From the NCBI GenBank assembly GCA_964620805.1, contig CAZUJQ010000002.1, positions 6,253-70,252 of the forward strand: a stretch of DNA of 64,000 bases, read 5' to 3'. The position numbers and the translations under genes were made by a program. The notes under the pieces are model-generated. The model was not told the DNA's origin and did not search any database. It saw only the letters and a list, made by a program, of their open reading frames with translations. How positions within the stretch are numbered: position 1 is the first letter of the stretch; every line of letters begins with the position of its first letter. Positions 4,297 through 62,630 of this stretch are shown here, one piece after another. The stretch is from an uncultured Planctomycetales bacterium (lineage in GTDB: Bacteria; Omnitrophota; Gorgyraeia; Zapsychrales; JAHFFX01).

Positions 4297-4299
4297 TAA

Positions 4300-15723: not shown

Positions 15724-15727
15724 TATT

Positions 15728-17125: not shown

Positions 17126-17150
17126 TTTAAAATTTTGATCAGCCTATCAG

Positions 17151-17323
17151 GTTGCCTTTGTTTCCAGTGTTTCCGAGGTTGCCGATGTTAATTTATTTAC
17201 GTGACATTTTTAAGGTTGCTTAATGTTGCCTGATGTTGTCTTTTCCAACCTTTAGTAACTTCAGGCAACATCTTGAAAGGCAACCTTGGTAACTTTGGCA
17301 ACATAGGAAACATTGGCAACTTT
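17151..17323. repeat. family-A element copy A3 (core variant, leader ORF disrupted)
   Basis: gttgccttt-gtttccagt-gtttccgag-gttgccgat ... ggcaacctt-ggtaacttt-ggcaacata-ggaaacatt-ggcaacttt. Confidence 0.8.
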
Positions 17324-17891
17324 ATCTTGCCTCTTTACGAGGTTTGCTTTGAACCCTCGCCGGCACCCCCACAACCGTCGCCCCTTCCGGAACATCATCG
17401 ATCACGACCGAATTGGCGCCGACACGGGCATGATTTCCCACGCGGATCGCCCCCAAGACTTTTGCCCCGGTGCCGATGTACACACCATCGCCAATCACCG
17501 GCACGCCAGAATCTCCCAGTCCTCTGGTCCCAATGACGACGCCCGGGCCAATCGAGCAGTTCTCTCCCATCACGACATCGCTATGGAGGATGATTCCCCC
17601 AAAGTGGCCTACGTACAGTCCCCTCCCAATCTGAGCGCTGGCCGGAAGCGAGATGCCGGTCGTCATCTCAATCCATTTGAAGAGCAAAAACACCTCAAGA
17701 CGCAGGAGATGAGAGATCAACGGAAATTTCAAAGCCTGCGCCCACCGGCCGAAACGATACACCGCCAACGCCCAGATTCCCTGCTCGAAGAAAAGGTATA
17801 TCCGGTCTTGTCTCCGGCTATTTCGAAGATACCGGCGAATGTCTGCTGTGAAATTTGGGAACATCATGGTATAAGTTTCCAACGTTTCCAT
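17322..17891 (-). CDS. hexapeptide-repeat acetyltransferase (serine acetyltransferase-like / WcaB-like); start probably MMFPNF at ~17866
   Basis: Left-handed beta-helix hexapeptide repeats ('IGPGVVIGTRG', 'IGDGVYIGTGAKVLGAIRVGNHARVGANSVV') preceded by a SAT-like N-terminal helical region. The first 8 codons come from a degenerate repeat. Confidence 0.55.
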   Translation of the reverse strand: METLETYTMMFPNFTADIRRYLRNSRRQDRIYLFFEQGIWALAVYRFGRWAQALKFPLISHLLRLEVFLLFKWIEMTTGISLPASAQIGRGLYVGHFGGIILHSDVVMGENCSIGPGVVIGTRGLGDSGVPVIGDGVYIGTGAKVLGAIRVGNHARVGANSVVIDDVPEGATVVGVPARVQSKPRKEAR

Positions 17892-17894
17892 CGT

Positions 17895-18707
17895 TTATGC
17901 TTTGTTTGGACAAAGCAATCTCAAAACATTCTCTTTCGTAAAGACCTTCATGTCCAACGGATTCTCCAGGAAATTCACCACATCGCGGTGCACCTTCCGC
18001 CAGTCGGCTTTATCCACCACTTGATAGAGGAAATCCCGCCAATTGTCTTCCCGCGGGATCTCCTTTGTCCATCCCGTTTGCGTCAAGGCATTATGCAGCA
18101 ACCGAATGTTGGGTTTGATATCCCTCCAGCGGGATAGATACCATCCCAAATCAAAAAAGTCCCGGCCTTTGGTGTATTTGCGGCTCAGCAAAGCAGACAC
18201 TTTGCCGGCAAAGAATGACGGAAGATCGAAGGTCAAAAAGGCAAGCGGAAAATATTTGTTGATGATTTGTATTTCGAGCCGGCTGCCCTCAGGCGGGTTG
18301 GTATCAATTTCGATCTTGACCGATAATTTCTGTTTTTTTAACGGGGAGAGACCTGCTTCATACAGCAGTCCCTCGAACTTAACAAAGGCCGATTGAACCG
18401 TTTTGACTTCATTGTAAGTCACCGAAACGTTGTAGCCGGCCAGATCCAATTCCTGCTTGAGCTTCTTGATGAGCTTGACAAAAGACAATGTCCTGCCTTG
18501 TACATGGGAAAAGTCCAAATCCTCGGAAAAGCGAGGCAGATTGTGCAAAAACCGCAGGGCCGTTCCTCCCCAAAAAGCCGTTGTTTGAAAAATCCCGTCA
18601 TCATGGAGAATCCTTAAGACATAGGCCTGCAGATATTCCCGCATCGTATTGAGCCTGACCTGGGATCCTTCCTTCGCGCCCGTCAGCTCTAGGAGGTAGT
18701 CTTTCAT
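17895..18707 (-). CDS. nucleotidyltransferase AbiEii/AbiGii toxin family protein
   Basis: 'FWGGTALRFLHNLPRFSEDLDFS' (DUF1814/AbiEii signature); 4-nt overlap with the upstream AbiEi-like gene. Confidence 0.65.
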   Translation of the reverse strand: MKDYLLELTGAKEGSQVRLNTMREYLQAYVLRILHDDGIFQTTAFWGGTALRFLHNLPRFSEDLDFSHVQGRTLSFVKLIKKLKQELDLAGYNVSVTYNEVKTVQSAFVKFEGLLYEAGLSPLKKQKLSVKIEIDTNPPEGSRLEIQIINKYFPLAFLTFDLPSFFAGKVSALLSRKYTKGRDFFDLGWYLSRWRDIKPNIRLLHNALTQTGWTKEIPREDNWRDFLYQVVDKADWRKVHRDVVNFLENPLDMKVFTKENVLRLLCPNKA

Positions 18708-19342
18708 AAAGTTTTCTCTTTCTTTTTATAGGCCAGGACATAATCTTTAATCATGGCAGCGGATTGTTCCATACGCGGTTTGCCGAAGCGCCTGGCGTAT
18801 TCCGATAATTTCCGCAGGTTGATTTTTTCGACATTTTGCAGGCGCAATTCCGCCAGATAATCCATCGAGACGTCCACATGCCTGAAATAGATCAGATCCA
18901 GAATGGATTTTTCCGGCTCCGCCATAAAAGCTGTTTGCTTTCTGACCTCCAGGGAATGATATCCCCAAAAAAGCGACTGCTGAATGTGCCGGTAATCAAA
19001 AATCCCCACCGGGGTATTAAAACGGCCCTGGCGTTTCGTGGTGACCGCCGTATAAACATTTACAGCCTCCGGAATCAGATTGTGAAATTCCAAGGCCTTC
19101 TCTAAGCTGATGTAGGAAGGCCTCTTCAGAAGGCTGGCGACAGCCGGCTCGAAGATTTCAATCCCTCGATAAGGTTCGGCAAGGATATAAATCCCCCGCT
19201 TTAACTGGATCAACTTGCCGGCCTTTTCCCAGCGGCTGATTTGAACCTTAATCGCATCCGGCTTGAGGGCCCCGGCTGAAAGAATCTGAGTATTGATAAC
19301 CGGCAGATGCTTCACCTGTGAGATGAGCTCAGCAAAGTCCAT
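18704..19342 (-). CDS. AbiEi-family antitoxin (type IV TA / abortive infection partner)
   Basis: 212-aa protein immediately upstream of and overlapping AbiEii; N-terminal wHTH-like region. Confidence 0.5.
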   Translation of the reverse strand: MDFAELISQVKHLPVINTQILSAGALKPDAIKVQISRWEKAGKLIQLKRGIYILAEPYRGIEIFEPAVASLLKRPSYISLEKALEFHNLIPEAVNVYTAVTTKRQGRFNTPVGIFDYRHIQQSLFWGYHSLEVRKQTAFMAEPEKSILDLIYFRHVDVSMDYLAELRLQNVEKINLRKLSEYARRFGKPRMEQSAAMIKDYVLAYKKKEKTL

Positions 19343-20305: not shown

Positions 20306-20323
20306 TGGCGTTACTCGTAAGTA

Positions 20324-20624
20324 TCATTGCGACCCCGCCGTAGTTTGGCGGGGGAAGCAATCTTTTTACAATTTATCCCATAAATCTCCCCATGTAGAAA
20401 ACGCTGGTATAGGCTTCGTTCTTCTTCGCTCTCAGCCAAAGGCTGATCCGCCTCTGGCAGAAAATGTTCTTGCGTTTGCCCGCCCCGGCTATCGTGACTA
20501 GGCGGGCCAGGGAGCTTCGAAGGAACGATTCCTACGAAGCTCAAACATGAAAGTATTCGAGCGGAGAATAAAAGATTGCTTCGTCGCTTCGCTCCTCGCA
20601 ATGACACATTCCTCGCATGACACA
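20324..20624. repeat. family-B palindromic element core (TCATTGCGA...GAAGCAATCTTTT // AAAAGATTGCTTC...CTCGCAATGACA) split by a ~200-bp insertion that carries further repeat modules
   Basis: Left part 20324-20368 and right part 20568-20606 match the cores at 29731-29838 and 62458-62560. The insert contains 'AGAAAACGCTGGTATAGGCTTCG' (also at 24333) and 'CGAAGGAACGATTCCTACGAAGC'. Confidence 0.65.
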
Positions 20625-20636
20625 TGGAGAATAAGC

Positions 20637-21626
20637 TCAAGCGAGATTGTCTGTTGGGACATCCGCTTTTGTCCATCCCAATTTCCATAAGAGAAACTTG
20701 AGCACATAAAAAAACTGCGCCGCGTAAGGTTTCAGGAAACGGTACGGCAGGGAAAATCTTATTCTCTCTGCCTCTTGCGGCCAGAAGTGTACGCCGATCC
20801 AGGGGAGATTTAAAACCGCGAGAGCGTAACAACGCGCCGCCTTTAGGTACTCCCGTATCCGAGAATAGAACATCCCGAATCGGTAATAATTGACAGCCCG
20901 GAACTTCCTGTATTCCGTCCCCCTCAGACGGCTGCGGATGACCGGTTTATCCAGGATTGTCAAATGGTCTTTGAGGTGAAGGTCCAGGCCTTTGCTGAAG
21001 TTCCCGGGGTGCCTTCGAAACTTTGCCAAAGGGCGATTGGTGTACTCAAAACGGTATTTTGTAGCAATACGGATCCACAAATCGTGATCCTGGTTGGTCA
21101 GAAGACTTTCATCGAAATGGCCCATTTCCTCGGAGACTTTTCGGCGGATGACCACCGTCAAGTGCCACACGAAATTGTCGAAAAGGAGGCTCTTAAACGA
21201 TTGTTCCCGATACCTCCCATCGACCGAGGTTTTGTAAATCTCGCTGTTGGCGTCCATGAAATAGGTTCCCGCACAAACAAAGGCAACGTCAGGATTCTGG
21301 TCCAGAACCGCTACCTGCCGTTCCAGCATGTCGGGCATCAGGGCATCGTCATTGCCGAGGATCACGTAATATTCGCCCTTGGCGTGACGCACGCCGGTAT
21401 TCATCGCCCCCGGTGGCCCCAAATTCTCCTGGTAAATGTACCGAATCCTGTCGCCGTATTTTTTCAAGACCTCAGCGGTATGATCCGTTGAGCCGTCATC
21501 GACAACGATGATTTCATAGTCTAAGAAAGTCTGCGCCAGGACGCTGTCGATCGCCTCACAGATATAATGAGGCCGGTTATACGTTGGTATTATGACGCTG
21601 ACTTTGGGCATGGGGCGATCACTCAC
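20637..21626 (-). CDS. glycosyltransferase family 2 (likely ATG start at 21611)
   Basis: 'KVSVIIPTYNRPHYICEAIDSVLAQTFLDYEIIVVDDGSTDHT'. The listed ORF starts at GTG 5 codons upstream of the first ATG. Confidence 0.7.
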   Translation of the reverse strand: MSDRPMPKVSVIIPTYNRPHYICEAIDSVLAQTFLDYEIIVVDDGSTDHTAEVLKKYGDRIRYIYQENLGPPGAMNTGVRHAKGEYYVILGNDDALMPDMLERQVAVLDQNPDVAFVCAGTYFMDANSEIYKTSVDGRYREQSFKSLLFDNFVWHLTVVIRRKVSEEMGHFDESLLTNQDHDLWIRIATKYRFEYTNRPLAKFRRHPGNFSKGLDLHLKDHLTILDKPVIRSRLRGTEYRKFRAVNYYRFGMFYSRIREYLKAARCYALAVLNLPWIGVHFWPQEAERIRFSLPYRFLKPYAAQFFYVLKFLLWKLGWTKADVPTDNLA

Positions 21627-21637
21627 TTTGAATATAA

Positions 21638-21802
21638 GTTGCCGATGTTTCCAAGGTTTCCGAGGTTGCCAAGGTTACCCTATTCATCTGACATCCTTTA
21701 AGGTTGATTGAGGTTATCTATGAGGGAAACCTCACGTAACTTTAGGCAACCTCTAAGAGGCAACCTTGGTAACTTTGGCAACATAGGAAACATCGGCAAC
21801 CT
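21638..21802. repeat. family-A element copy A4
   Basis: gttgccgat-gtttccaag-gtttccgag-gttgccaag-gttaccct; core attcatctgacatcctttaaggttg; right arm ggcaacctt-ggtaacttt-ggcaacata-ggaaacatc-ggcaacctg. Confidence 0.8.
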
Positions 21803-21820
21803 GATTGTCGGCTTCTTTTA

Positions 21821-23098
21821 TTAGACGCCGCCCCCAAACGCCTTGATGGCCTCCTGATAAGCCTTAAGCGATTCTTCCACTAATTTTTGATAGGAATAGG
21901 CTGTCCGGACCTTCTTTAACCCGTTGGCAGCCAGTTTAAGGCGTAACGCCTCATCTTGCAAGAGACGCAGGATGGCCTTCGCCAGCATCATAGCGTCCCC
22001 GGGATTAACCAGCAGGCCGTCTTTTTCGTGATGAATCAATTCTTTTAAACCTCCAGCGGTGGAAGCGATGAGGGCGCACCCCGAGGCCATCGCCTCCAGG
22101 GCGCTTAAGGGCAAACCCTCATCGTAAGAAGGCATGATCAGGATGGAACTTTTTCTTAACCAAATTTTAAGCTGATCCGGTGGCAATGTCCCCAGATATT
22201 CAAAATTTTTTGCTCCTATGGCTTCCCGCAGCATTTGACTGTTTTTCTTTCCATCAGAGGAGAAGGCATCAGCGCCCGCGACCGCCAATTGGACGTCAGG
22301 GAATTCTTTAATGACCAGGGGCAGGGCTTGGGCCATCACATCAATGCCTTTTCTTGGAATCAATCGACCGGCAAACAGGATCTGGCAAGGATCTTTTTTT
22401 CCATTGGGAGAGAAAATTTGACTATCAACCGCGTTATAAATGGTCTTGATATTCCGATTAATCCTCCAGACCTGCTTTACGAAATCCGCCGTATCCCTAG
22501 AGACCGCCGCCAAGCCATCCGCCTTAAGCAGGGTGTCCCGCTGCATGGCCCAAGAGATTCGCTCCTTTAAGCTCAAGGTGGTTGAAATGGGGTCACACCC
22601 CATTTCCCTGCCTAACGTTTCCTGGGTTGGAAATGGGGTTGGAAATGGGGTGTGACCCCATTTCCTAGACCATCCGTGCAGGCGAAAAAAGACCGGAAGG
22701 CGATTGTGGCGCCGGGCGTAAATAAACCCTTGCCGGAAATAATCGAAAGTTTCCACGATATCCAGGGCATATTCCGCTTGGACGGACTCGATTTTCTTCG
22801 CCACGGCTTTCGAATACCGCAAATCATTCAAGGGAAGAAACCGCTCAATCTTCCAGACCCCCGGGAAGAGATCGTCATCAAAGGGGACGTGGTGAACAAA
22901 AATATTTTGTCCCAATCGGCCGCGGTTTAAATCCCCTTCGTCCTGGCAAAGGATATGGACGGAGTGCCCCGCCTCACTCAAGGCCCTGGCATAATGGGCC
23001 GTGAAGGTCTCGATCCCGCCGGAATCTTGGTGAAAATTTCGACACAAAAGACAGATGTTCATCGGACTCCCCATCTCTCTCTTACTCAAGGGATTCAA
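21821..23098 (-). CDS. glycosyltransferase family 4
   Basis: GT-B fold, 'ILIMPSYDEGLPLSALEAMASGCALIASTAGG'. Carries the in-frame hairpin element at 22584-22665 ('RKWGHTPFPTPFPTQETLGREMGCDPIS'). Confidence 0.7.
   Translation of the reverse strand: MNPLSKREMGSPMNICLLCRNFHQDSGGIETFTAHYARALSEAGHSVHILCQDEGDLNRGRLGQNIFVHHVPFDDDLFPGVWKIERFLPLNDLRYSKAVAKKIESVQAEYALDIVETFDYFRQGFIYARRHNRLPVFFRLHGWSRKWGHTPFPTPFPTQETLGREMGCDPISTTLSLKERISWAMQRDTLLKADGLAAVSRDTADFVKQVWRINRNIKTIYNAVDSQIFSPNGKKDPCQILFAGRLIPRKGIDVMAQALPLVIKEFPDVQLAVAGADAFSSDGKKNSQMLREAIGAKNFEYLGTLPPDQLKIWLRKSSILIMPSYDEGLPLSALEAMASGCALIASTAGGLKELIHHEKDGLLVNPGDAMMLAKAILRLLQDEALRLKLAANGLKKVRTAYSYQKLVEESLKAYQEAIKAFGGGV
22584..22665. repeat. second copy of the in-frame palindromic hairpin pair (loop cac ... 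loop gtg), here with a 33-nt spacer holding an extra half-arm
   Basis: 'gaaatggggtcacaccccatttcc...ggaaatggggtt ggaaatggggtgtgaccccatttcc'; translated in the same frame as the copy at 14905-14962. Confidence 0.75.
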
Positions 23099-24248: not shown

Positions 24249-24439
24249 TTAGTAGCACTAAATGATATTATAAATTTTTGTCGTATTTCCCCAGGAAGTT
24301 TCCTATTTTCCTACGTCTTAGTAATAGAAAACGCTGGTATAGGCTTCGGAGAATTATTCCTACGAGAATATTCTACGAAGCATATACTATCGTTTCTATT
24401 GCTTATGCGAAGTAGAATAAAGAGGAACCAAGATAATAT

Positions 24440-24545: not shown

Positions 24546-24582
24546 GGGGCTCCTAGTATTTTCACTTTAGTTCCAATATAAA

Positions 24583-25150
24583 GTTTCCGATGTTTCCAAA
24601 GTTTCCGAGGTTTCCAATGTTACCTCATTGATTCGAGATGCTTTAAGGTTGCTTAACGTTGTTTCAGGTTAAATTTCATTCTTTCCGGGTGTTGTCCATT
24701 TACCTTTATTGGACGACTTGTTCATGGACTTAAGGTATTGATTACTCATGTAAAGAGCGCTTTTACATAGTTTGGTCAATTGATCGTGTTCTTGAGGATT
24801 GATTAGCTTATCTTCCAAGCAATCATCAATATCTCCGCTTAATTCTTCCAAGGATCCTTGGCTTATGCGTATGGCCTTCAGAAACTCGGCTAAACTTCCT
24901 CGGCTGTAGCCCTCCCTGATATTCTGCTTTGCTGAGCGCGTCGCGCTTCTCATCTCACTGACAAGTCTAATATGGCTTTTTTCAAATCGTGTTATGATAG
25001 CCGCAACTAACTTGCGAAGCTCGCATATGTCTTGATAAAATTTGAGCTTTTCGTATGGTCTTGCTGGCATCTGCAACCTCACATAACTTCTTTGCAACCT
25101 CCAAGAGGCAACCTCGGTAACTTCGGCAACATGGGCAACATCGGCAACCT
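24583..25150. repeat. family-A element copy A5 with the four-helix-bundle gene inserted between core and right arm
   Basis: Left arm 24583-24625 plus core ttgattcgagatgctttaaggttgcttaacg; right arm 25071-25150 begins immediately after the 4HB start codon. Confidence 0.75.
24669..25097 (-). CDS. four-helix-bundle protein (23S rRNA intervening-sequence protein family; probable start at 25070, MPARPY)
   Basis: 'SATRSAKQNIREGYSRGSLAEFLKAIRISQGSLEELSGDIDDCLE' matches the S23/IVS four-helix-bundle family. Sits entirely inside family-A repeat copy A5. Confidence 0.6.
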   Translation of the reverse strand: MQRSYVRLQMPARPYEKLKFYQDICELRKLVAAIITRFEKSHIRLVSEMRSATRSAKQNIREGYSRGSLAEFLKAIRISQGSLEELSGDIDDCLEDKLINPQEHDQLTKLCKSALYMSNQYLKSMNKSSNKGKWTTPGKNEI

Positions 25151-25204
25151 CCTTTTACAGGCTCCTCATATATTCATGAATATTTAAGGCATAGGGCTAA
25201 ATAA

Positions 25205-26632: not shown

Positions 26633-26778
26633 GAACTTGAGTTTGGCAAATTTTCGAATTTGTCGTCGGAAAAGTCTCTCGGATCGCAAAAACAGGTTTT
26701 CGATACCACAAAATTGCTTTCTCGACGAGAACTACCTGAAAATACGGCCCAAAAGCCCGAAAAAGTGCCAAACTCAAG
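26633..26778. mobile_element. MITE-like element copy 1 (146 bp, terminal inverted repeats GAACTTGAGTTTGGCA / TGCCAAACTCAAG), possible 5-bp target duplication AACCG
   Basis: 146/146 identity with 59589-59734 as far as I can align by eye; flanks '...attAACCG|aacttgag...ctcaag|AACCGaat'. Confidence 0.7.
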
Positions 26779-28122: not shown

Positions 28123-28745
28123 GTTCTGCTCAATTCTATCCTTTTATATAGCCTTGCATTGAGAAAGATACATCCGACTGACCAAGTACCGTTGAAGCAT
28201 GAGATAAATCATGTAGCTTTATCTCGACTTTAGACATTTTTGAGCCCCTTAATAAGGCTAGCTCTCATCGAGTGGGTATTTTTAAAAATGAATTTTTGCA
28301 TCTTTGGGATCTAATCAAATGGCTTGGGACATTAAAAAATCCGGCAACTCTGATATGGCCTCGATGAGGCAAACTTTTTAAGAGGCTCCAAAAGCCCCGA
28401 AAAATGTCTAAAGTCGAGTTTATAATATGCAAGATAAGCACTCTCCCGACTGTGTCGGGAGAGTGCACACTAGACCCCGTCGCTTTACTTCGTCCCGTGA
28501 AAGGCTTTGCCTTTCACGGGATTAAATCCCTGAAATCGCGAAGCGATTTCAGGGGACAAAGCGAATCACAGGGGTCACATTGGAATCTCCTGCCTGGGCT
28601 TATCTTTTCCCCCGCGCTTTGTCCCGATGTTACATCGGGACAGCGGGGAATCGGAATTTCGCTTTTGAAATTCCGATGTGACAAGCCTATATAGTAAACC
28701 CCGTAAAGAGGTAAAGGATATGTCCATGGTCATTGAGATAGCGGA

Positions 28746-29714
28746 TCAAGAAGAAAGATAACAACTTTCGGTCTTCTCCCAACAATATTTATAAAAAATA
28801 AGAGGTAAATAGAAACACAAAAGAAGAAAGACCTTTATCTTTAGAACACGCTTTCTTTTACTCTCCTTGAATAATTCATTCCAATTCATCCAGATAAATG
28901 CATGACGTAAATTGTGCGCAAAAGAATGGTAAGGATCCTTGAGAATCGTAATCAAACGGTTGCGTCCCTGAAGTCGTATGAGCCATTCGGGTTTGGACAT
29001 ATGAGAACTCATGTGGGCACCCATGTGGTAGTGCAACACACGGCTATTTGTCACACAGGCAATCCTAAATCCTCGGAATTTGGCCCTTCTGGAGAAATCA
29101 AGATCCTCATCGTACAGAAAATAGAAGGGATCAAGTCCACCGATTTTTTTAAAGACCTCTTTCTTAACCAGCATACAGACGCCCCCCATCCAATCCACCT
29201 CATAAAATTCAGAAAGGTGTCCTTTCTTCTGATCTTCCATATAACTTGTGCGAGCAAGCATTTTTGACCGGAAAATGTAATCGATTTCTTTCCCTTCATA
29301 ATCATATTGAATAGGGCCTAGAATTCCTATGTCGGGGTGGACCTGGAAGACTTTGATCATTTCCGTTAACCAGGTGCGCTCGGCTTTAATATCTTGATTT
29401 AAGATTCCAACATAGTTTGCATTCCTTTTGATGGCCTCCTGAATCCCAAGATTGTAAGCCGATGATCCGAGATTCTTCTTGCATCGAATAAGCAAAATAT
29501 TTTTGAAGTTGTGTTCAATGTAAGAAGGACTGTCATCCGTGGAGTGATTATCAACGGCAATGACCTGGAGATTAGAATAGTCCGTTTCCAGAAGGGAACG
29601 CAGGCATAAATCTATCCATTTTTTCCCGTTATAAATCAAGACCACCAAGGTGACACGTGGCCAACGATCGCTTTTCATAAGGGTCCTTCCCTCCCTTCTA
29701 GTCGGTATTGTCAA
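28746..29714 (-). CDS. glycosyltransferase family 2
   Basis: 'VTLVVLIYNGKKWIDLCLRSLLETDYSNLQVIAVDNHSTDDS', 'YDEDLDF'. Confidence 0.6.
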   Translation of the reverse strand: MTIPTRREGRTLMKSDRWPRVTLVVLIYNGKKWIDLCLRSLLETDYSNLQVIAVDNHSTDDSPSYIEHNFKNILLIRCKKNLGSSAYNLGIQEAIKRNANYVGILNQDIKAERTWLTEMIKVFQVHPDIGILGPIQYDYEGKEIDYIFRSKMLARTSYMEDQKKGHLSEFYEVDWMGGVCMLVKKEVFKKIGGLDPFYFLYDEDLDFSRRAKFRGFRIACVTNSRVLHYHMGAHMSSHMSKPEWLIRLQGRNRLITILKDPYHSFAHNLRHAFIWMNWNELFKESKRKRVLKIKVFLLLCFYLPLIFYKYCWEKTESCYLSS

Positions 29715-29908
29715 AAGTTATTAACTTTGGTGTCATTGCGAGCCATCGTTGATATTTCGTTTTGGCGAAGCAATCTTTTTAGACGATCTCAAAGATTGCT
29801 TCGTCGTCGCTAAAAAGCGCTCCTCCTCGCAATGACACGATCTGGCATCCCCAAGTTTCATACTAATATTCTTTTTGATACCTACTCTTCATAAAACTTT
29901 TGACAGTA
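29708..29908. mobile_element. family-B MITE-like element (TIRs TTGTCAAAAGTT ... AACTTTTGACA with internal multi-hairpin core TGTCATTGCGAG...CTCGCAATGACA)
   Basis: Matches 62436-62630 in the same architecture, and the core at 20324-20624. Confidence 0.6.
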
Positions 29909-30074
29909 CCTTCCAAGGACTCTAGTCCTTAGGAATCGATGATTTCTACATGGGGGGCAGGATAAACCTTGTCTTGGCATTGCCCCAGGAGCGCACCTTG
30001 CGGATGATCTCGTCTTTTATAATCTCTCTAACCTTAAAACCCTCGAACATATCCTCCCCCACCTTTCGCTTTTC

Positions 30075-31343: not shown

Positions 31344-31666
31344 ATTATTCTCCTTCGCCCCGCCTGTCTGCCGACAGGCAGACAGGCGGGGCTTCGGAGG
31401 AATTATTCTGCTCGAGAATATTCCTGCGAAGCCCCACCTCTTGCATTCTGCAAGAATGCGGTGGGGCGTAGCAGAATAGCCGCCTTCTCATTGTTGTCAA
31501 CAGACTGCATAAGATATATCTATTTTGTGCAGTGTACTGCACCAAATAGATAATACCATGAAAGAATCTCCCGGTGCAATTTTTTTCTTTTCCTGTCCGT
31601 TCTCATCGTAACAGGACGCTCCCGTAATGTCCGCTGGCGGCGAGGTCTTGCTCCGCTCAGATATCA

Positions 31667-32977: not shown

Positions 32978-34249
32978 CTATACGTTGCCGAAGGGGAAAG
33001 TAGGGACAGCGCCCACTTTTGAAAAAGTAGGCGCTGTCCCTACTTTCCGAATTTCCTCCCAGGCCCGAAGAGCCAGGCTGTCAGGAATCTCCAAATCCTG
33101 GAAGGTCAAGATTTGCTCGGGTTCAACCGTTCTCTTGACGAGGGCGTTATGCACCAACCCCAAGGGCATATGCCCCGGATGTTCGGTCATTTTGACCGTC
33201 ACGCCCCGCAAAGAAAAGCTTCCCATGCCATGGGGAATCGATTCTCCCGGTGATAATTTCTTTTTCGCGATCGCGGCGATGCTGACTGTAGGACGGCTAG
33301 AGTTGTTGAGAAGAGCCGATCTTCCTTCAAAAGCCCTGCGAATAGTTTTAGGAATTTCCAGATGGCAGAGAATATGATTTTTAAAGAGCGAATAATAGGG
33401 TCCCTCTCCTAGTTTGAAATAATCCAGGGCCTGCTGCTGCACTTCGTCATGTTCCGCGATTAGAAAAATTTTGAAATGCGATTTGGCGATGACCGTGTAA
33501 TCGCTGATCGCTTGGCCGAGGCGCTTGGCTTCCTCAGCCAGGATATTCACGCACTCCTGAAAATTCTTAGTCTGGGGGCCCAGCATCCCGGTCTGTAGAA
33601 TAGTGGCGTTGAGGCCGTTGGCTATCAAGGCTTGCTCATACTGCATCTTGGTTCCATCGGTCGCGGCTGTGACCATGCCTAAAGTCAATCTCTGTTTCCT
33701 GGACCAAAATTGCATGTTTTCCAAAGACGGATTGGGATCGTAGAATCCCTTGACATTGCCAAAGACCAAGGGCCGAAATCCCATTTGGACAGCGTCCTCA
33801 TGGAGGGCCGCCAGGCAGCCGGGTTGATCTCCTTCGGCCTCGGTCAGATAACCTTTGTCCACAAAAAAAGAACCGGTCGTCACGTGGAATTCAGAGTTCA
33901 TGGTGACGACCGGAAGGCCCGCTTGAAAAGCGCGGTTGACAACCTCGGTGGCATGCAGAACATCGCCGCTACATTCCACGATCAAATCGGAATGGTCGAT
34001 GAGTTCGTCCAGAGAATTGGTCATAAGGTCCGACCGCGGGAATTCCCAACAGGAAGCAATGGGCCGGCGGGTCAAAACTTTGGAGACCGCGAAATCCTGC
34101 ACATTCTGCATGGCGAGCATAAAGCCCCGGGCGATGAATCCTGAGCCGACGACACCGATTTTTTTGATGGAACTTTTCATGGTTTTAAATTGCTCAAATG
34201 TTTCCAATGTTTCCGAAGTTTCCGAGGTTGCCAAGGTTATCTTATTCAT
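32978..34249 (-). CDS. NAD(P)-binding oxidoreductase with C-terminal SAF-like domain (COG4091-like); start probably MKSSIKK at 34180
   Basis: 'IGVVGSGFIARG' Rossmann motif. The first 23 listed codons are repeat-encoded. Confidence 0.4.
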   Translation of the reverse strand: MNKITLATSETSETLETFEQFKTMKSSIKKIGVVGSGFIARGFMLAMQNVQDFAVSKVLTRRPIASCWEFPRSDLMTNSLDELIDHSDLIVECSGDVLHATEVVNRAFQAGLPVVTMNSEFHVTTGSFFVDKGYLTEAEGDQPGCLAALHEDAVQMGFRPLVFGNVKGFYDPNPSLENMQFWSRKQRLTLGMVTAATDGTKMQYEQALIANGLNATILQTGMLGPQTKNFQECVNILAEEAKRLGQAISDYTVIAKSHFKIFLIAEHDEVQQQALDYFKLGEGPYYSLFKNHILCHLEIPKTIRRAFEGRSALLNNSSRPTVSIAAIAKKKLSPGESIPHGMGSFSLRGVTVKMTEHPGHMPLGLVHNALVKRTVEPEQILTFQDLEIPDSLALRAWEEIRKVGTAPTFSKVGAVPTFPFGNV

Positions 34250-34364
34250 TCCGACATTCTTAAGGTTAATTAACGTTGCCTGACGTTTTCAACCTTTTGT
34301 AACTTCGGGTAACCTCTAAAAGGCAACTTCGGCAACGTCGGCAACCTGGGAAACATTGGCAACA
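34190..34364. repeat. family-A element copy A6
   Basis: gtttccaat-gtttccgaa-gtttccgag-gttgccaag-gttatctta; core ttcattccgacattcttaaggttaattaacgttgcc; right arm ggcaacttc-ggcaacgtc-ggcaacctg-ggaaacatt-ggcaacata. Confidence 0.8.
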
Positions 34365-34370
34365 TAATCA

Positions 34371-35402
34371 CTAAGCATCCACCTCCGTAACTTCCATCAC
34401 CTTCTTAACCTCCATAACCTCATTAACCTTAAATTCCCTTTCCTTGAGCTTCTGGAGCCAATCCTCATGCTCGACATACCATTGAATCGTCCGGTCTAAA
34501 CCTTTCTCAAAATCAACAGAAGGCCTCCAGCCCAGTTCATCTTGAATTTTATGAGAATCAATCGCGTAGCGGCGGTCATGTCCCAGGCGATCCTCCACAA
34601 ACTCGATCAAAGACTCCGGTTTTCTTAGTTTTTTCAATAGCAATTTCACGAGATCGATGTTTCGCCATTCGTTGCTCCCCCCGATGTTATAGATCTCCCC
34701 CAACCGGCCTTTTTGCAGGACGACGTCAATCGCCCGGCAATGATTCTCTACGTAGAGCCAATCCCGGACATTCAGCCCGTCCCCGTAGACCGGCAATTTC
34801 TTATTGGCCAGGGCGTTGTTGATCATAAGAGGAATGAGTTTCTCCGGATACTGGTAGGGCCCGTAATTGTTGGAGCAGCGCGTGATGATCGCGGGAAACT
34901 TATATGTTTCATAATAGGATCGGACCAGGCAATCAGAGCCGGCCTTGCTGGCGGAATAAGGGCTGTTGGGCATAAGGGGTGAAGTCTCCAGGAAATAACC
35001 GCTGTGGCCCAAAGTGCCGTAGACCTCGTCCGTTGAGACATGAATGAATCTTTTCACTTGAGCCCTCATGGCCGCCTCTAAAAGATGGTAAGTGCCCAGG
35101 ACATTGGTGCGGACAAAAGCGGAGGCATCCTTGATGCTGCGGTCCACATGGGTTTCCGCGGCAAAATGAACCACATAAGCCGCACCTTCCATGGCCTTCC
35201 AGACATCGTCGAACTCCGCAATGTCTCCCAGGACGAAATTGTAGTGCGGATCGTCTTCTAGATCTCGAAGGTTGTTGAGATTGCCGGCGTAGGTGAGCTT
35301 GTCCAGATTAACGATGGCAACATCGGGATGAGTTCCCATCATATACCGCACAAAGTTTGATCCGATGAATCCGCAGCCACCGGTGACGAGTATTTTTTTC
35401 AT
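34371..35402 (-). CDS. rfbB: dTDP-glucose 4,6-dehydratase
   Basis: 'MKKILVTGGCGFIGSNFVRYM', YxxxK and full-length similarity pattern to RfbB. Confidence 0.8.
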   Translation of the reverse strand: MKKILVTGGCGFIGSNFVRYMMGTHPDVAIVNLDKLTYAGNLNNLRDLEDDPHYNFVLGDIAEFDDVWKAMEGAAYVVHFAAETHVDRSIKDASAFVRTNVLGTYHLLEAAMRAQVKRFIHVSTDEVYGTLGHSGYFLETSPLMPNSPYSASKAGSDCLVRSYYETYKFPAIITRCSNNYGPYQYPEKLIPLMINNALANKKLPVYGDGLNVRDWLYVENHCRAIDVVLQKGRLGEIYNIGGSNEWRNIDLVKLLLKKLRKPESLIEFVEDRLGHDRRYAIDSHKIQDELGWRPSVDFEKGLDRTIQWYVEHEDWLQKLKEREFKVNEVMEVKKVMEVTEVDA

Positions 35403-35431
35403 AGATTCCTTTCAGAAATTAGGGACAGCTC

Positions 35432-36331
35432 CTACTTTTTATAAAAAAATGCATTGTCAGCAAAAGTAGGCGCTGTCCCTAATTTTTCTAGAAACCGCTC
35501 AACGGCGTCCTGCCACGTTGGAGGTGTCATTTTGAGATCATCCGCCAACTTCTTGTTGGACATGGCGGAAAACGCCGGCCGCCGCGCCTGAAGCCTAAAC
35601 GAATCTGCCGGAACCGGGATCAATTCCATCGTCCTTCCGATTCTCTCGAAATAATATCTTGCCCATTCCAGGCGGGAACAATAGCCGCTGTTGGTCAAGT
35701 GATACAGGCCTTCTAATCTCTTGTTTAGCGCCAAAAATGTAAACTCGACCACATCCTCTGTGAAGGTGGGAACGGAGGTCTCATCACAGGCGATTTGAAG
35801 ACGATCGGTATTTTTCGCCCATTCCTCAAGCCGGAAAAGAAAATTATTCTTGCCCTGCCCGAAAAGCCAGCTCAATCGGAATATCAGAAATTGATCCGTG
35901 TATTTCTCAACCGCCTTCTCCCCTTCCCACTTGCTGTGTCCGTACACGCTGATGGGGTCCGGTTGATCCTCTTCTGTGTAAGGGGTCCCTTTCTGGCCGT
36001 TGAAGACGTAATCCGAGCTGAAGTGAACCAGAAATATTCCCTGGCTGTGGCATAGGCGTGCCAGGTTCTCTACCGCTTCCTGGTTGACCTGATAGGCCTT
36101 GGCCTTTTCTTTTTCGGCCTGGTCCACATGATTGAAGGCTGTGCAGTTGATGATGAGATCCGGCCCGATTGTCTGGAGCATGGCCTCCATCTGGGTTTTA
36201 TTCGTGATGTCCAAGTGGGCGTAATCGAAGCCCGCATAAGACACTTTGGACAACTCGAGCTTTCGGACAAATTCCCCTCCAAGCTGGCCTTCGCTTCCGA
36301 GAATCAAAGTTTTCTTATTGGTTTTTATCAT
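35432..36331 (-). CDS. rfbD: dTDP-4-dehydrorhamnose reductase
   Basis: 'LILGSEGQLGGEF' N-terminus, RmlD-type short-chain reductase. Confidence 0.75.
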   Translation of the reverse strand: MIKTNKKTLILGSEGQLGGEFVRKLELSKVSYAGFDYAHLDITNKTQMEAMLQTIGPDLIINCTAFNHVDQAEKEKAKAYQVNQEAVENLARLCHSQGIFLVHFSSDYVFNGQKGTPYTEEDQPDPISVYGHSKWEGEKAVEKYTDQFLIFRLSWLFGQGKNNFLFRLEEWAKNTDRLQIACDETSVPTFTEDVVEFTFLALNKRLEGLYHLTNSGYCSRLEWARYYFERIGRTMELIPVPADSFRLQARRPAFSAMSNKKLADDLKMTPPTWQDAVERFLEKLGTAPTFADNAFFYKK

Positions 36332-38179: not shown

Positions 38180-38197
38180 TTTTTATTTCCGTAATAA

Positions 38198-38397
38198 GTT
38201 GCCGATGTTTCCAGAGTTTCCGAGGTTTCCGATGTTACCTGATTCATCCGACATCCTTTAAGGTTGCTTAAGGCTGTCTTTCTGAACCTCTTGTAACCTT
38301 AGGGAAACCTCTGAAAAGGCAACCTCGGCAACCTGCCTGCCATTTGCAGTGTCAATCGGCAGGCAGGCATTGGCAACGTTGGAAACATGGGCAACCT
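38198..38397. repeat. family-A element copy A7 (right arm interrupted by a 36-bp palindrome at 38333-38368)
   Basis: gttgccgat-gtttccaga-gtttccgag-gtttccgat-gttacctga; core ttcatccgacatcctttaaggttgcttaagg; right arm ggcaacctc-ggcaacctg-[cctgcctgcc...ggcaggcagg]-ggcaacgtt-ggaaacatg-ggcaacctt. Confidence 0.8.
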
Positions 38398-39350
38398 TAC
38401 TTGCCCCACTTCCCCTTAAAATATTCGGCCGTCTTTGCCAGCCCCTCTTCGAACTCCACGATGGGTTTATACTTAAGCACCTTTTTAATCTTGGAGATAT
38501 CCGCGTTGGTGCGAAACACATCTCCCGGCCGGACCGGCAGGAGTTGGGGGTCAATATTTTTCCCCAGGATGCGGTTTAAGACCGCCGCGAGTTTAAGAAC
38601 CGTATGGTCCTGTCCACTGGCGACGTTCAGGACCTCGTGCCGGAGACCAGGAGTTGTGGCCGCCAGGATGTTGGCGAAAATGACGTTCTCGATATACGTA
38701 AAATCCCGGGATTGCTTTCCTGTTCCGAAAATTGGCGGCTGTTCATTATGCAAAAGAGAATGGATGAATTTTGGGATGACCACGGCATATTCATCATCCA
38801 GCGATTGTTTTGGCCCGAAGACGTTAAAATAGCGTAGGCACACCGTCTCCACCCCAAAAAATTCCGAGAAGATCCGACAGTAATACTCCCCCGCGAGTTT
38901 GCTTAAGGCATAAGGTGAAATCAACAAAGGAAGATCCGTCTCTTTTTCCGGGAATTTTTTAACGTCTCCGTAGATCGAGCTCGAAGACGCGAAGACAAAG
39001 CGTTTGATTTTATTGTGGGAAGCGGCCTGAAGCATAAAAAGCGTCCCGTTGATATTCACGTCATGATAGCTTTCTGGATCTTTCATGGATTTGGGAACCG
39101 AACGTAGCGCCGCCTGATGAAGGACGTAATCCATTCCCTGACAGGCCTTTTGGCAAGTGCCCTTATCACGGATGTCCCCTAGCATCAGCTCAAATCTGTC
39201 TTTGCCCAAAGTTTTGGCAAATTCCAGATTGTCTTGGGTGCCGGAAGAGAAATTGTCTAGAACTCTCACAAAATGATTTTGTTTGATGAGGGCCTCGGCA
39301 ATATTGGATCCGATGAATCCTGCCCCACCGGTGATGAGGTATTTATCCAT
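38397..39350 (-). CDS. NAD-dependent nucleotide-sugar epimerase/dehydratase (WbpP/TviC-like UDP-sugar 4-epimerase family)
   Basis: 'ITGGAGFIGSNIAEAL', YxxxK 'YALSK' extended SDR. Confidence 0.65.
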   Translation of the reverse strand: MDKYLITGGAGFIGSNIAEALIKQNHFVRVLDNFSSGTQDNLEFAKTLGKDRFELMLGDIRDKGTCQKACQGMDYVLHQAALRSVPKSMKDPESYHDVNINGTLFMLQAASHNKIKRFVFASSSSIYGDVKKFPEKETDLPLLISPYALSKLAGEYYCRIFSEFFGVETVCLRYFNVFGPKQSLDDEYAVVIPKFIHSLLHNEQPPIFGTGKQSRDFTYIENVIFANILAATTPGLRHEVLNVASGQDHTVLKLAAVLNRILGKNIDPQLLPVRPGDVFRTNADISKIKKVLKYKPIVEFEEGLAKTAEYFKGKWGK

Positions 39351-39479
39351 ATATTAACCTTTCCTTTGCTGAGAGCACAGCGCATAGAGCTTAGGGCTAA
39401 TGGCGTATGGCTCATAGCTCATAGCTTTGGGCTGTGGGCTATGGGCCATGAGCTCTACGCCCTTAGCCCTATGCTGACA

Positions 39480-55280: not shown

Positions 55281-55322
55281 ACTCCTCGGTGACTTCCACG
55301 AGATTTTGGCTTTCGGGGAGGT

Positions 55323-62269: not shown

Positions 62270-62435
62270 CCTAGCCCAATCCGCATTTTCTGTTAAGACT
62301 ATTAAAGTCTACCCAGAAACTTTCCTTAAGTCTTTGTTTCTCTGGAATAATTTTCAAACAGTTGATGAGCCAAAAGGCCAGAATGAGTATCACAATTGTT
62401 TCTATCATATTTACCTCCTTGCTTACTCTGCAGTT

Positions 62436-62630
62436 CTGTCAAAAGTCCTCATCTATCGTGTCATTGCGAGGCCGCCGCAGTTTGGCGGGGGAAGCAATCT
62501 TTTAAACTCTAAAGAGATTGCTTCGTCGTCGCTAAGAAGCGCTCCTCCTCGCAATGACACATAGTTGTTGTTGCAAATTTTCCGTATAACTTCTCTTCTT
62601 TCATAAAACTTTTGACAATACCTACTCTGC
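62436..62630. mobile_element. family-B MITE-like element (second full copy)
   Basis: 'ctgcagttcTGTCAAAAGT...gtgtcattgcgagg...cctcgcaatgacac...ACTTTTGACAatacctactctgcag'; flanking 'tactctgcag' on both sides. Confidence 0.6.

What the first reader, a model, noticed from the sequence alone, without database searches (positions are those of the whole stretch)
29708..29908. Family-B MITE-like element with TGTCAAAAGT termini and a multi-hairpin core (TGTCATTGCGAG...CTCGCAATGACA); 2 full copies plus a core-only copy split by a 200-bp insertion
Full copies are at 29708-29908 and 62436-62630. The core recurs at 20324-20624 interrupted by about 200 bp that itself contains smaller repeat modules. AGAAAACGCTGGTATAGGCTTCG also occurs at 24328-24356. 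GCTTCGGAG-AATTATTC...GAGAATATTC-CGAAGC occurs at 24349-24388 and 31393-31434.

The nested, modular reuse of small hairpin units across several intergenic sites looks like a combinatorial repeat system rather than isolated terminators.
Basis: seen in the sequence. Interest (0 to 1): 0.5.

Follow-up and report, generated by a model that had tools for sequence, protein, structure and literature searches.

The report
IS6-like MITE carrying REP-like hairpin pair
The two ~200-base repeats are real miniature transposons: cut-down relatives of an IS6-like insertion sequence, with 16-base inverted ends and an 8-base target duplication, whose interior is a pair of small palindromic REP-like units that also occur alone in many bacteria and phage-like contigs. 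This is an ordinary kind of selfish DNA, not a new system.

Summary
The boundaries are refined to 29704-29910 (copy A) and 62432-62622 (copy B).

**The elements are MITEs.**
- Their ends, GGTAnTGTCAAAAGTT(TTATG), recur in at least 120 metagenome contigs.
- 23 complete 85-480 bp relatives have 8-bp target-site duplications.
- Four ~1.8 kb full-length versions with the same ends encode 430-500 aa transposases. Two were scanned, and both have an IS6-type DDE domain (Pfam PF13610, above its cut-off).
- Copy B has a perfect 8-bp duplication (TACTCTGC). It sits exactly between an AcrB-like stop codon and the next gene's ribosome-binding site.

**The multi-hairpin core is a separate thing.** It is an inverted pair of REP-like units, (T/C)GTC-ATTGC-GA-[variable hairpin]-GAA-GCAAT.
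- The unit is extremely widespread: 255 units in 120 IMG/VR contigs, plus MAGs of many phyla.
- It is mostly intergenic and has no strand preference. Its apical hairpin covaries.
- It resembles the CGTC-tagged REP superfamily. It is not in Rfam.
- A third pair (20322-20606) lacks MITE ends and has ~210 bp of other palindromic modules between its partners.

No promoter or terminator consensus lies in the elements. Function beyond selfish spread (a structured intercistronic RNA) is inferred only.

Verdict: a new member of a known kind, of modest interest.

The parts
29704..29910 (+). MITE copy A (207 bp). It lies between the stop of an AAA_14/DUF4143 gene (30075) and the start of a GT2 glycosyltransferase gene (29681, minus strand), 22 nt from that start codon.
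   Evidence: 16-nt inverted ends match the family consensus. Fold -71.8 kcal/mol, z -6.9. Neighbours annotated by Pfam.
29704..29719 (+). Left terminal inverted repeat of copy A, GGTATTGTCAAAAGTT.
   Evidence: It is a 16/16 reverse complement of copy B's right end.
29888..29910 (+). Right subterminal region plus terminal inverted repeat of copy A, TTCATAAAACTTTTGACAGTACC.
   Evidence: 23/24 identical to copy B. It matches the pattern found in at least 120 metagenome contigs.
29731..29775 (+). REP-like unit, left partner of copy A (TGTCATTGCGAG...GAAGCAATC; weak 23-nt apical part).
29794..29837 (-). REP-like unit, right partner of copy A (inverted).
   Evidence: 45/46 identical to copy B's right partner.
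29696..29703 (.). Possible left target-site duplication of copy A (TTCTAGTC). The 7/8 partner CTCTAGTC lies at 29920-29927, displaced 9 nt from the right end.
   Evidence: Ambiguous.
62432..62622 (+). MITE copy B (191 bp). It lies between the stop codon of an AcrB-family gene (62622-62624, minus strand) and the ribosome-binding site of a 45-codon ORF (start 62408) followed by an ArsP-type permease.
   Evidence: Fold -72.9 kcal/mol, z -7.5.
62424..62431 (.). Left copy of the 8-bp target-site duplication of B (TACTCTGC).
62623..62630 (.). Right copy of the 8-bp target-site duplication of B (TACTCTGC). It overlaps the last codons and stop of the AcrB-like gene. The reconstructed empty site keeps the same C-terminus (...LSNSAE*), with the stop changed from TAA to TAG.
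62459..62499 (+). REP-like unit, left partner of copy B (apical hairpin GCCGCC..GGCGGGG).
   Evidence: 93% identical over 43 nt to the left unit at 20324-20366.
62516..62559 (-). REP-like unit, right partner of copy B.
20322..20362 (+). REP-like unit, left partner of a pair with no MITE ends (locus C). It starts 16 nt upstream of a GT2 gene start (20305, minus strand).
20363..20573 (.). 211 nt lying between the two partners of locus C. It is made of other palindromic modules shared with 24325-24348, 9194-9230, 29943-29955 and the 24345/31393 hairpin type.
   Evidence: (family D17).
20574..20606 (-). REP-like unit, right partner of locus C (canonical GAGGAGCGAAGCGACGAAGC type, containing GCGAAGC).

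Best explanation
The element is a non-autonomous miniature transposon (MITE). It derives from a long, IS6-like insertion sequence and carries an inverted pair of REP-like palindromic units as its interior.

**How it moves.**
- Shown: the ends match the family, an 8-bp target duplication is present, and full-length partners with the same ends encode an IS6-type DDE transposase.
- Inferred: a DDE transposase supplied in trans by a full-length copy elsewhere in the genome binds the 16-21 bp terminal inverted repeats, GGTAnTGTCAAAAGTT(TTATG). It inserts the element with duplication of 8 bp of target.

**The core.**
- The core pair is not specific to the MITE. The same unit, (T/C)GTC head, ATTGC/GCAAT basal stem, GA//GAA internal loop and a free-to-vary apical hairpin, exists independently in many bacteria and phage-like contigs and at locus C in this window.
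- Inferred: the pair either inserted into, or was captured by, an ancestral MITE of this organism.

**Effect on the host (inferred, untested).** Both copies lie inside a co-directional gene string, 22-23 nt upstream of a start codon. They are therefore probably co-transcribed. They would place a very stable ~200-nt multi-branched stem-loop between cistrons. Such a structure could act as an exonuclease barrier or processing site, as described for REP elements. It is not a promoter or an intrinsic terminator.
For: **The right end is a widespread element end.**
- The sequence diverges immediately after TACC, and many hits lie at contig ends.

**Relatives are MITEs with 8-bp duplications.**
- 18 loci have a matching left end 85-366 bp upstream (a nineteenth lies 994 bp away), most with exact 8-bp direct repeats: GGCCGGTT, TAGGTATA, AATTATCT, AATTACAA, TATTTTAC, CGAAGAAT, TTCCCTGC, GTTTTTCT, GCAGCAGG, TTAATTTC, ATGAATCA.
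- A looser left-end pattern adds L206 (479 bp, CAAATTTA) and gives 23 complete elements with at least 7/8 duplication. The end consensus is GGTAnTGTCAAAAGTTTTATG, which fits the window copies.

**A coding partner exists.**
- Four ~1.8 kb elements bounded by the same ends (L161, L188, L210, L221) contain 450-500-codon open frames.
- The L161 and L188 proteins match Pfam DDE_Tnp_IS240 at 43.7 and 37.8 bits (cut-off 27), plus rve_3. Their best NCBIfam hit is the IS6 family transposase.
- IS6-family features in the literature match: 8-bp duplications; short related terminal repeats with G tips and cTGTt/caaa motifs; long members of 1710-1760 bp with ~450-aa Zn-finger-extended transposases; two catalogued MITEs of 227 and 336 bp (PMC7986276, PMC6807381).

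**Copy B is a clean insertion.** It has a perfect 8-bp duplication, and the reconstructed empty site is a compact stop-SD-ATG junction with an unchanged AcrB C-terminus.

**The core unit is independent of the MITE.**
- 255 units occur in 120 IMG/VR contigs, with 173 distinct apical regions. There are 36 tails-inward pairs (spacers mostly 20-30 nt) against 5 heads-inward pairs.
- Four of the five apical pairs show compensatory changes, and no shuffle out of 500 reaches the covariation score.
- 71% of units are intergenic, against 20% of random positions. Orientation relative to genes is 18 against 22.

**Not a known RNA, promoter or terminator.** No Rfam match. No promoter or terminator consensus.
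Against: - Only two copies are visible, and the rest of the genome is unavailable. The source organism is absent from both scanned collections. Copy number and the presence of a full-length element in this genome are therefore unknown.
- Copy A's duplication is imperfect (7/8) and displaced by 9 nt.
- Copy B's left end deviates from the consensus (AGTTC instead of GGTAn).
- None of the four full-length relatives has a matching duplication.
- The transposase falls below NCBIfam's IS6 cut-off (83 bits against 125). The parent is IS6-like, not a canonical IS6/IS26 member.
- None of 91 metagenomic relatives carries the REP-like core, so how the chimera arose is conjecture.
- A and B are mosaic: near-identical blocks separated by unrelated spacers. 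This means old divergence under constraint, or exchange of modules, rather than recent transposition.
- The RNA-level effect is pure inference.
Confidence: 0.8

Rival explanations
1. The whole thing is a REPIN-type element. A pair of REP sequences would be moved as a single-stranded hairpin by a RAYT (HUH tyrosine) transposase, and the TGTCAAAAGT outer repeat would be just an extra stem.
For: - The core is an inverted pair of palindromic units with an unpaired (T/C)GTC head. The pairing and extragenic location match those described for REP dimers.
- Locus C shows that the pair exists without the outer repeat.
- DNA inserted between dimer partners is described for REPs.
Against: - The outer repeat is a bona fide transposon end, with 8-bp duplications and a DDE-transposase-encoding partner. 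HUH transposition makes no target duplication.
- The head is not GTAG. CGTC-type REPs have no associated transposase.
- None of the 27 window proteins scanned against Pfam matched a transposase domain of any kind.
Confidence: 0.08
2. It is a structured cis-regulatory RNA or small RNA gene conserved for a specific function, such as a 5' leader of the downstream genes.
For: - Very stable folds, z about -7.
- Both copies sit 22-23 nt upstream of a start codon in the same orientation.
- The apical hairpin of the unit covaries.
Against: - No Rfam family matches, even at E<=10.
- The downstream genes are unrelated: a GT2, and a small ORF plus a permease.
- Single units show no orientation preference relative to transcription, 18 against 22.
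- The ends behave as transposon ends.
- Spacers between conserved blocks are unrelated.
Confidence: 0.05
3. They are intrinsic (bidirectional) transcription terminators, like the Bacteroidales hairpins that have a similar TGTCAAAAG outer stem around the same core pair.
For: Ten composites in six Bacteroidia/Ignavibacteria-type MAG loci have GAGG(G/C)TGTGTCAAAAG...CTTTTGACACA(C/G)CCTC around the same core pair. A T-run follows and there is no target duplication.
Against: - In the window neither copy is followed by a T-run, and the terminator scan finds nothing.
- The ends match the MITE family with duplications rather than the Bacteroidales stem.
- Both copies sit inside co-directional gene strings.
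Confidence: 0.04
4. It is a chance similarity or a local segmental duplication.
For: Only two full copies are seen in 64 kb.
Against: - Motif counts are far above shuffles.
- The copies are 32.7 kb apart with unrelated flanks.
- The family is present in at least 120 independent contigs.
Confidence: 0.01

Closest known systems
MITEs of the IS6 family (MITEBth2 and MITEHarch3 in ISfinder) and the long IS6-like insertion sequences (clades h/i of Varani et al. 2021; clades VII/VIII of Harmer & Hall 2019)
   Same: - 8-bp target duplication.
- Short related terminal repeats with a G-rich tip, a TGT core and a CAAA run (GGTAnTGT-CAAAAG against GGTTCTGTTGCAAA).
- MITE size of about 200-340 bp.
- The full-length partner is ~1.8 kb and encodes a 430-500 aa protein with a Cys-rich N-terminal extension and a DDE_Tnp_IS240 domain. 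Clade i is comparable at 1710-1760 bp and ~450 aa.
- The outermost bases of the repeats are not always complementary, as reported for the long members.
   Different: - The repeat lacks the TG of TTGCAAA and extends to about 21 bp.
- The transposase scores below NCBIfam's IS6 cut-off, so it is a distant relative.
- The described long members are mostly clostridial, whereas these come from sediment and groundwater metagenomes.
- The interior is a REP-like hairpin pair instead of leftover IS sequence.
CGTC-tagged REP superfamily (Di Nocera et al. 2013, PMC3733652), for the core units
   Same: - Unpaired CGTC/TGTC head.
- The stem starts with A-T, A-T pairs.
- A CCA(G) tail in many relatives.
- Mostly inverted dimers with 20-100 nt spacers, often heterodimers, with DNA sometimes inserted between partners.
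- Intergenic, between co-directional or convergent genes.
- No dedicated transposase.
   Different: - Described CGTC REPs have an 8-9 bp perfect stem and a 4-5 nt loop.
- Here there is a 5-bp basal stem, a conserved GA//GAA internal loop and an apical hairpin of free sequence and length (4-40 nt).
- The tail in the window is CTT, not CCA.
- The exact sequence was not found in that paper or its supplements.
Mosaic intergenic repeats (BIME of E. coli, NIME of Neisseria, RIME of rhizobia) and nested small dispersed repeats of cyanobacteria
   Same: Small palindromic modules are combined in different orders and nested inside one another in intergenic DNA. Locus C and the hairpin stacks at 9190-9300, 28400-28700 and 31350-31470 are examples. 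This comparison rests on my own knowledge of those families.
   Different: No sequence relationship was tested. Here one layer is clearly a DDE-type MITE.

Membership tests
MITE (generic definition) | Terminal inverted repeats | tested here: met
   16 nt in copy A (15/16 complementary). Copy B's right end is a 16/16 reverse complement of copy A's left end. Copy B's own left end matches only from TGTCAAAAGT.
MITE (generic definition) | Target-site duplication of fixed length | tested here: met
   Copy B is 8/8 (TACTCTGC). 23 metagenomic relatives have at least 7/8 over 8 bp. Copy A is only 7/8 and displaced by 9 nt.
MITE (generic definition) | Small, non-coding, more than one copy | tested here: met
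   207 and 191 bp, with every reading frame interrupted. Two copies lie in the window. The genome-wide number could not be tested.
MITE (generic definition) | A transposase-encoding partner with the same ends | tested here: met
   L161, L188, L210 and L221 are ~1.8 kb with the same ends and 450-500-codon open frames. L161 and L188 carry a DDE domain. No such partner was found in the window itself.
IS6/IS26 family | 8-bp target duplication | tested here: met
   Literature.
IS6/IS26 family | Terminal repeat consensus GGTTCTGTTGCAAA (GG tip, G7, G10) | tested here: inconclusive
   GGTAnTGTCAAAAG keeps the GG tip (often), G7 and the CAAA run, but lacks G10 and the TG. The same departures are reported for the 'long' members, whose place in the family is disputed.
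IS6/IS26 family | Transposase with an IS6-type DDE domain | tested here: inconclusive
   Pfam PF13610 scores 43.7 and 37.8 bits against a cut-off of 27, which is met. The NCBIfam IS6 equivalog scores 83 and 64 bits against a cut-off of 125, which is not met, although it is the best hit.
IS6/IS26 family | Length 700-890 bp and a transposase of 213-254 aa | tested here: not met
   ~1.8 kb and 430-500 aa. This matches only the atypical long clade (1710-1760 bp, ~450 aa).
IS6/IS26 family | Movement by cointegrate formation | not testable with these tools
   Needs experiments.
CGTC-tagged REP superfamily (core units) | Unpaired CGTC/TGTC head 5' of the stem | tested here: met
   The three window units that keep GTCATTGCGAG exactly are preceded by T, giving TGTC. 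The left unit of locus C reads TATC. Among the 247 IMG/VR units in the tabulated dinucleotide classes (255 in all), the base before GTC is T in 156 and C in 91.
CGTC-tagged REP superfamily (core units) | Stem begins with two A-T pairs | tested here: met
   ATTGC/GCAAT.
CGTC-tagged REP superfamily (core units) | Stem of 8-9 bp and loop of 4-5 nt | tested here: not met
   A 5-bp stem, a GA//GAA internal loop and a variable hairpin.
CGTC-tagged REP superfamily (core units) | 3-nt CCA-type tail | tested here: inconclusive
   The window units end in CTT. In relatives, GCAAT-CCAG occurs in 47 of 255 units and other tails are common.
CGTC-tagged REP superfamily (core units) | Mostly inverted dimers, extragenic | tested here: met
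   36 tails-inward pairs against 5 heads-inward. 71% of units are intergenic.
REPIN / RAYT system | GTAG head and a RAYT gene flanked by the repeats | tested here: not met
   The head is (T/C)GTC. None of the 27 window proteins scanned matched a transposase domain of any kind. The rest of the genome is unavailable.
Any Rfam RNA family | Covariance-model match | tested here: not met
   No hits at the gathering score on the whole window. Only noise (E>1) on 29650-29960.
Intrinsic terminator | GC-rich hairpin followed by a T-run | tested here: not met

The most novel reading that the evidence does not exclude
The core unit, (T/C)GTC-ATTGC-GA-[covarying hairpin]-GAA-GCAAT, may be more than a lineage-specific REP. 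It could be a single, cross-phylum structured nucleic-acid element, present in bacteria of many phyla and in phage-like contigs. Its invariant base and GA//GAA internal loop would be read by a conserved, still unidentified protein, acting on single-stranded DNA or on RNA. Its presence inside an IS6-like MITE would then show one way such transposase-less units spread, namely by hitch-hiking. The unit is absent from Rfam and from every paper reachable by sequence-string search.
Probability: 0.2. Interest if true: 0.6.

Novelty: new member of a known kind. Interest (0 to 1): 0.3.

Why it matters
- **Annotation.** These elements should be masked as an IS6-like MITE plus REP-like repeats. They should not be called as genes: their frames give recurrent spurious peptides such as IASSLRSSQ*, VIARSEATKQS and LLRRFAPRNDT.
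- **The MITE family.** The long, disputed IS6-like clade turns out to have abundant MITE derivatives in environmental bacteria. One relative carries a passenger gene.
- **The core unit.** It is a very widespread hairpin with a conserved sequence frame and no known mobilising enzyme. A systematic study of it could be worthwhile.
- **This genome.** The insertions sit at operon junctions of an exopolysaccharide cluster and an efflux/permease pair, and may alter the relative expression of the flanking genes.

Tried and rejected
- **Sequence-string literature searches** (TCATTGCGAG, CATTGCGAG with repeat/intergenic, CTCGCAATGAC, GAAGCAATCC) returned only primer hits. The strings are also absent from the text and supplements of the two REP survey papers.
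- **BLAST of the core against plasmids** found nothing. Against GenBank phages it found only short, unannotated matches, in Helicobacter canis prophages and faecal phages.
- **First metagenome scan** (core plus right end at the window's spacing) gave 0 hits, so the source organism is not in that collection.
- **Genome scan** for left end plus core gave 28 loci, none from the source species. It did reveal the look-alike Bacteroidales composites, which have no duplication and a T-run.
- **An empty-site comparison in close relatives was not possible.** The nearest homologue of the flanking permease is 67% identical, and the other contigs carrying window genes are 100% identical to the window.
- **A hybrid promoter from the outward-facing TTGACA in the terminal repeat was considered.** By eye, no -10 hexamer lies at the right distance, because the ribosome-binding site occupies that position. 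The scan finds no TIR-based promoter.
- **A K-turn or loop-E reading of the GA//GAA loop** does not fit the consensus of either motif. This is my own inspection.
- **TGTCAAAAG as a general companion of the REP-like unit is rejected.** It occurs near 1 of 251 units in IMG/VR contigs.
Full report
**1. Observation**

- GTCATTGCGAG (up to 1 mismatch) occurs 7 times against 0.99 expected. GAAGCAATCTTT occurs 6 times against 0.92 expected. No shuffle out of 100 reached either count.
- The two 'full copies' align over their whole length, but in a mosaic way. A 46-nt block is 45/46 identical, the 24-nt right end 23/24 and the 13-nt head 13/13. The two spacers, the central loop and the apical part of the left unit are unrelated.
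- The inverted terminal repeat is longer than reported. GGTATTGTCAAAAGTT at the left of copy A is the exact reverse complement of AACTTTTGACAATACC at the right of copy B.
- Both elements fold far better than shuffled sequence: -71.8 and -72.9 kcal/mol, z = -6.9 and -7.5. The fold is an outer stem enclosing a four-way junction made by the two core units.
- The third locus holds the two core units 211 nt apart, at 20322-20362 and 20574-20606. They have the same CTTTT/AAAAG tail extension as in A and B.
- The smaller shared modules are real. There is a 24/24 match between 20395-20418 and 24325-24348. The GCTTCG..GAATATTC..CGAAGC hairpin lies upstream of two AAA_14/DUF4143 genes. Those genes are only 26% identical and their flanks do not align, so the hairpin is not a by-product of a gene duplication.

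**2. Context**

- Every sizeable gene but one lies on the minus strand. The exception is rpoN.
- The window is an exosortase/exopolysaccharide cluster. It holds EpsH, Wzy, many GT2 and GT4 enzymes, Wzt/ABC-2, a polysaccharide export protein and dTDP-sugar enzymes. Interspersed are an AbiE toxin-antitoxin pair, two AAA_14/DUF4143 ATPases and a 23S-rRNA-IVS-protein gene. An RND pump and a permease lie at the right end.
- None of the 27 window proteins scanned against Pfam matched a transposase domain.
- Copy A lies between an AAA_14 gene and a GT2 gene. Copy B lies between an AcrB-type gene and a 45-codon ORF plus an ArsP-type permease. Locus C lies between two GT2 genes.
- The left ends of A and B are 22 and 23 nt from the next start codon, directly 5' of the Shine-Dalgarno sequence.
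- Neither element contains a sigma-70 promoter or an intrinsic-terminator consensus.
- No Rfam family matches, either at the gathering score on the whole window or at E<=10 on the element.
- The source is an uncultured organism. Identical DNA occurs in two JGI samples and one ENA metagenome sample. The nearest homologue of the permease is only 67% identical, from an Acidobacteriota MAG.

**3. The shell is a MITE of an IS6-like family**

- In these hits the sequence 3' of TACC is different every time. The 5' side shows a T-rich subterminal region and then diverse hairpins. Many hits lie at contig ends, as expected of a dispersed repeat.
- Eighteen loci have a matching left end 85-366 bp upstream (a nineteenth lies 994 bp away), and almost all of these show an exact 8-bp direct repeat immediately outside the two ends.
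- With a slightly looser left-end pattern, 23 complete elements have at least 7/8 duplication. The consensus ends are GGTAtTGTCAAAAgT... and GGTAnTGTCAAAAGTTTTATGAAAA, which the window copies fit.
- Four loci carry ~1.8 kb versions with the same ends, each with a 450-500-codon open frame.
- The two proteins tested hit Pfam DDE_Tnp_IS240 above its cut-off (43.7 and 37.8 bits against 27), plus rve_3. Their best NCBIfam hit is 'IS6 family transposase', although below that model's cut-off (83 and 64 bits against 125).
- The two IS6 reviews give the same family signature:
  - 8-bp duplications;
  - 15-20 bp related terminal repeats with G tips and cTGTt/caaa motifs, consensus GGTTCTGTTGCAAA;
  - a minority of long members (1710-1760 bp, ~450 aa) with Cys-rich N-terminal extensions, an 18-bp repeat consensus, no G10 and often non-complementary tips;
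  - two catalogued MITEs of 227 and 336 bp.
- Applied to the window, copy B is bounded by AGTTCTGTCAAAAGT... and ...ACTTTTGACAATACC. It is flanked by TACTCTGC on both sides. Removing the element and one repeat gives ...CTGCAGAGTAAgcaaGGAGGtaaatATG. That is the AcrB-type stop codon followed after 3 nt by the ribosome-binding site of the next ORF. The AcrB C-terminus is unchanged (...LSNSAE*). This is as good as an empty site can be reconstructed without a relative.
- Copy A is less clean. TTCTAGTC on the left is matched by CTCTAGTC 9 nt beyond the right end. The intervening bases complete a small hairpin with the downstream flank.

**4. The core is a different, very widespread palindromic unit**

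- In those 1.09 Mb there are 255 units with 173 different apical sequences.
- The conserved frame is (T/C)GTC / ATTGC / GA / G-[hairpin]-C / GAA / GCAAT / C.
- In the 32-nt length class, four of the five apical pairs show compensatory changes. The covariation score exceeds all 500 shuffles and all slid controls.
- The shortest class carries GCGAAGC. From my own knowledge, that is the very stable d(GCGAAGC) mini-hairpin.
- Units pair up tails-inward 36 times, mostly with 20-30 nt spacers, against 5 heads-inward pairs.
- 71% of units lie outside long ORFs, against 20% of random positions. They avoid divergent intergenic regions (2 of 54). Their orientation relative to co-directional genes is 18 same against 22 opposite (the ORF calling was crude).
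- The same unit turned up in MAGs of Bacteroidia, Ignavibacteria, Kryptoniota, Planctomycetia, Chloroflexi, Patescibacteria, Bdellovibrionales and Tardiphaga, and unannotated in a few GenBank phages.
- These properties match the CGTC-tagged REP superfamily of Di Nocera et al.:
  - an unpaired CGTC/TGTC head;
  - a stem starting with A-T pairs;
  - a CCA tail;
  - mostly inverted dimers, often heterodimers;
  - DNA sometimes inserted between partners;
  - location between co-directional or convergent genes;
  - no dedicated transposase.
- The geometry differs, however. Here there is a 5-bp stem, an internal loop and a free hairpin, instead of an 8-9 bp stem and a 4-5 nt loop. I could not find the sequence in that paper. 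I therefore file the unit as 'REP-like, closest to the CGTC class', not as a proven member.

**5. How the two layers relate**

- None of 91 metagenomic relatives of the MITE carries the REP-like unit.
- TGTCAAAAG accompanies the unit in only 1 of 251 IMG/VR cases.
- The chimera is therefore particular to this organism.
- Locus C shows the pair without MITE ends. The three loci combine left and right units differently: A-right equals B-right, B-left equals C-left, and A-left and C-right are distinct.
- This fits independent turnover or exchange of units, as in the heterodimers described for REPs.
- Ten composites in six Bacteroidia/Ignavibacteria-type MAG loci (L124, L135, L137, L138, L144, L146, L151) look superficially alike: GAGG(G/C)TGTGTCAAAAG-core pair-CTTTTGACACA(C/G)CCTC. 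They have no duplication and are followed by T-runs, so they look like terminator-type hairpins with the same pair nested inside. I treat them as a parallel case, not as the same element.

**6. Mechanism**

- Shown: the family-level ends, the duplications, the coding partner and the clean insertion of copy B.
- Inferred: mobilisation in trans by an IS6-like DDE transposase encoded elsewhere in this genome. Whether the route is IS26-type cointegrate formation or something else is open. Harmer and Hall note that the long members may move differently.
- Also inferred: co-transcription with the flanking genes, and an effect of the ~200-nt multi-branched structure on message processing or stability, by analogy with REPs.
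- No evidence supports a promoter, a terminator or a dedicated RNA function.

**7. Verdict**

The element is an ordinary kind of thing: a MITE, here of a poorly studied IS6-like lineage, nested with a REP-like pair. Interest is modest. The more intriguing residue is the cross-phylum core unit, whose reader protein and means of spread remain unknown.

Noticed in passing
window 4298-4393, 15502-15731, 17133-17330, 21620-21810, 24565-24662 + 25072-25158, 34182-34373, 38180-38402 (also 55252-55284): A separate and striking repeat family. It consists of ~200-bp intergenic palindromes built from 9-bp periodic units, GTT(G/T)CC on the left arm and GG(C/A)AAC on the right arm, lying between minus-strand genes of the polysaccharide cluster. 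In one copy the arms are 410 bp apart and enclose a gene for a 23S-rRNA-intervening-sequence protein (24669-25097, PF05635). That copy looks like a filled version of the otherwise empty palindromes.
   Followed up: partly
L191:1362-2355: A 994-bp relative of the MITE, with the same terminal repeats and a 7/8 target duplication, carries a PF05635 (23S rRNA IVS protein) gene as passenger. This small gene therefore rides in two different kinds of palindromic or mobile shell.
   Followed up: partly
window 26633-26778 and 59589-59734: An exactly duplicated 146-bp element with ~22-25 nt inverted ends (GAACTTGAGTTTGGCA...TGCCAAACTCAAG) sits at two unrelated sites. It is probably another, recently active MITE. 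Its target duplication was not resolved.
   Followed up: partly
window 29872-29888 versus 62609-62628: Just inside its right end, copy A contains TTTTGA--TACCTACTCT. This equals copy B's right end plus the first 6 nt of B's target duplication. It suggests that A descends from the copy at the B locus and carried its flank. Unexplained.
   Followed up: partly
window 14907-14965 and 22584-22666; 32995-33048 and 35416-35485; 39388-39475; 28400-28700; 31350-31470; 9190-9300: Many further intergenic palindromes and stacks of hairpins occur (GAAATGGGGTCACACCCCATTTCC pairs; GGAAAGTAGGGACAGCGCC...; and others). The intergenic DNA of this organism is unusually rich in distinct palindromic families.
   Followed up: no
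L124, L135, L137, L138, L144, L146, L151 (Bacteroidia, Dysgonamonadaceae, Prevotellaceae, Melioribacter and Bacteroidales MAGs): A recurrent ~130-bp composite in which a 17-19 bp outer stem, GAGG(G/C)TGTGTCAAAAG, encloses the same REP-like pair. It is followed by a T-run and has no target duplication. It looks like terminator-type hairpins with the pair nested in the loop.
   Followed up: partly
window 17895-19342: An AbiEii/AbiEi toxin-antitoxin pair is inserted within the glycosyltransferase cluster, next to the 9-bp-periodic palindromes.
   Followed up: no
window 20607-20624: Directly after the right unit of locus C, its last 15 nt are repeated in tandem with a 1-nt deletion (CTCGCAATGACACATT CCTCGCA-TGACACAT).
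   Followed up: no
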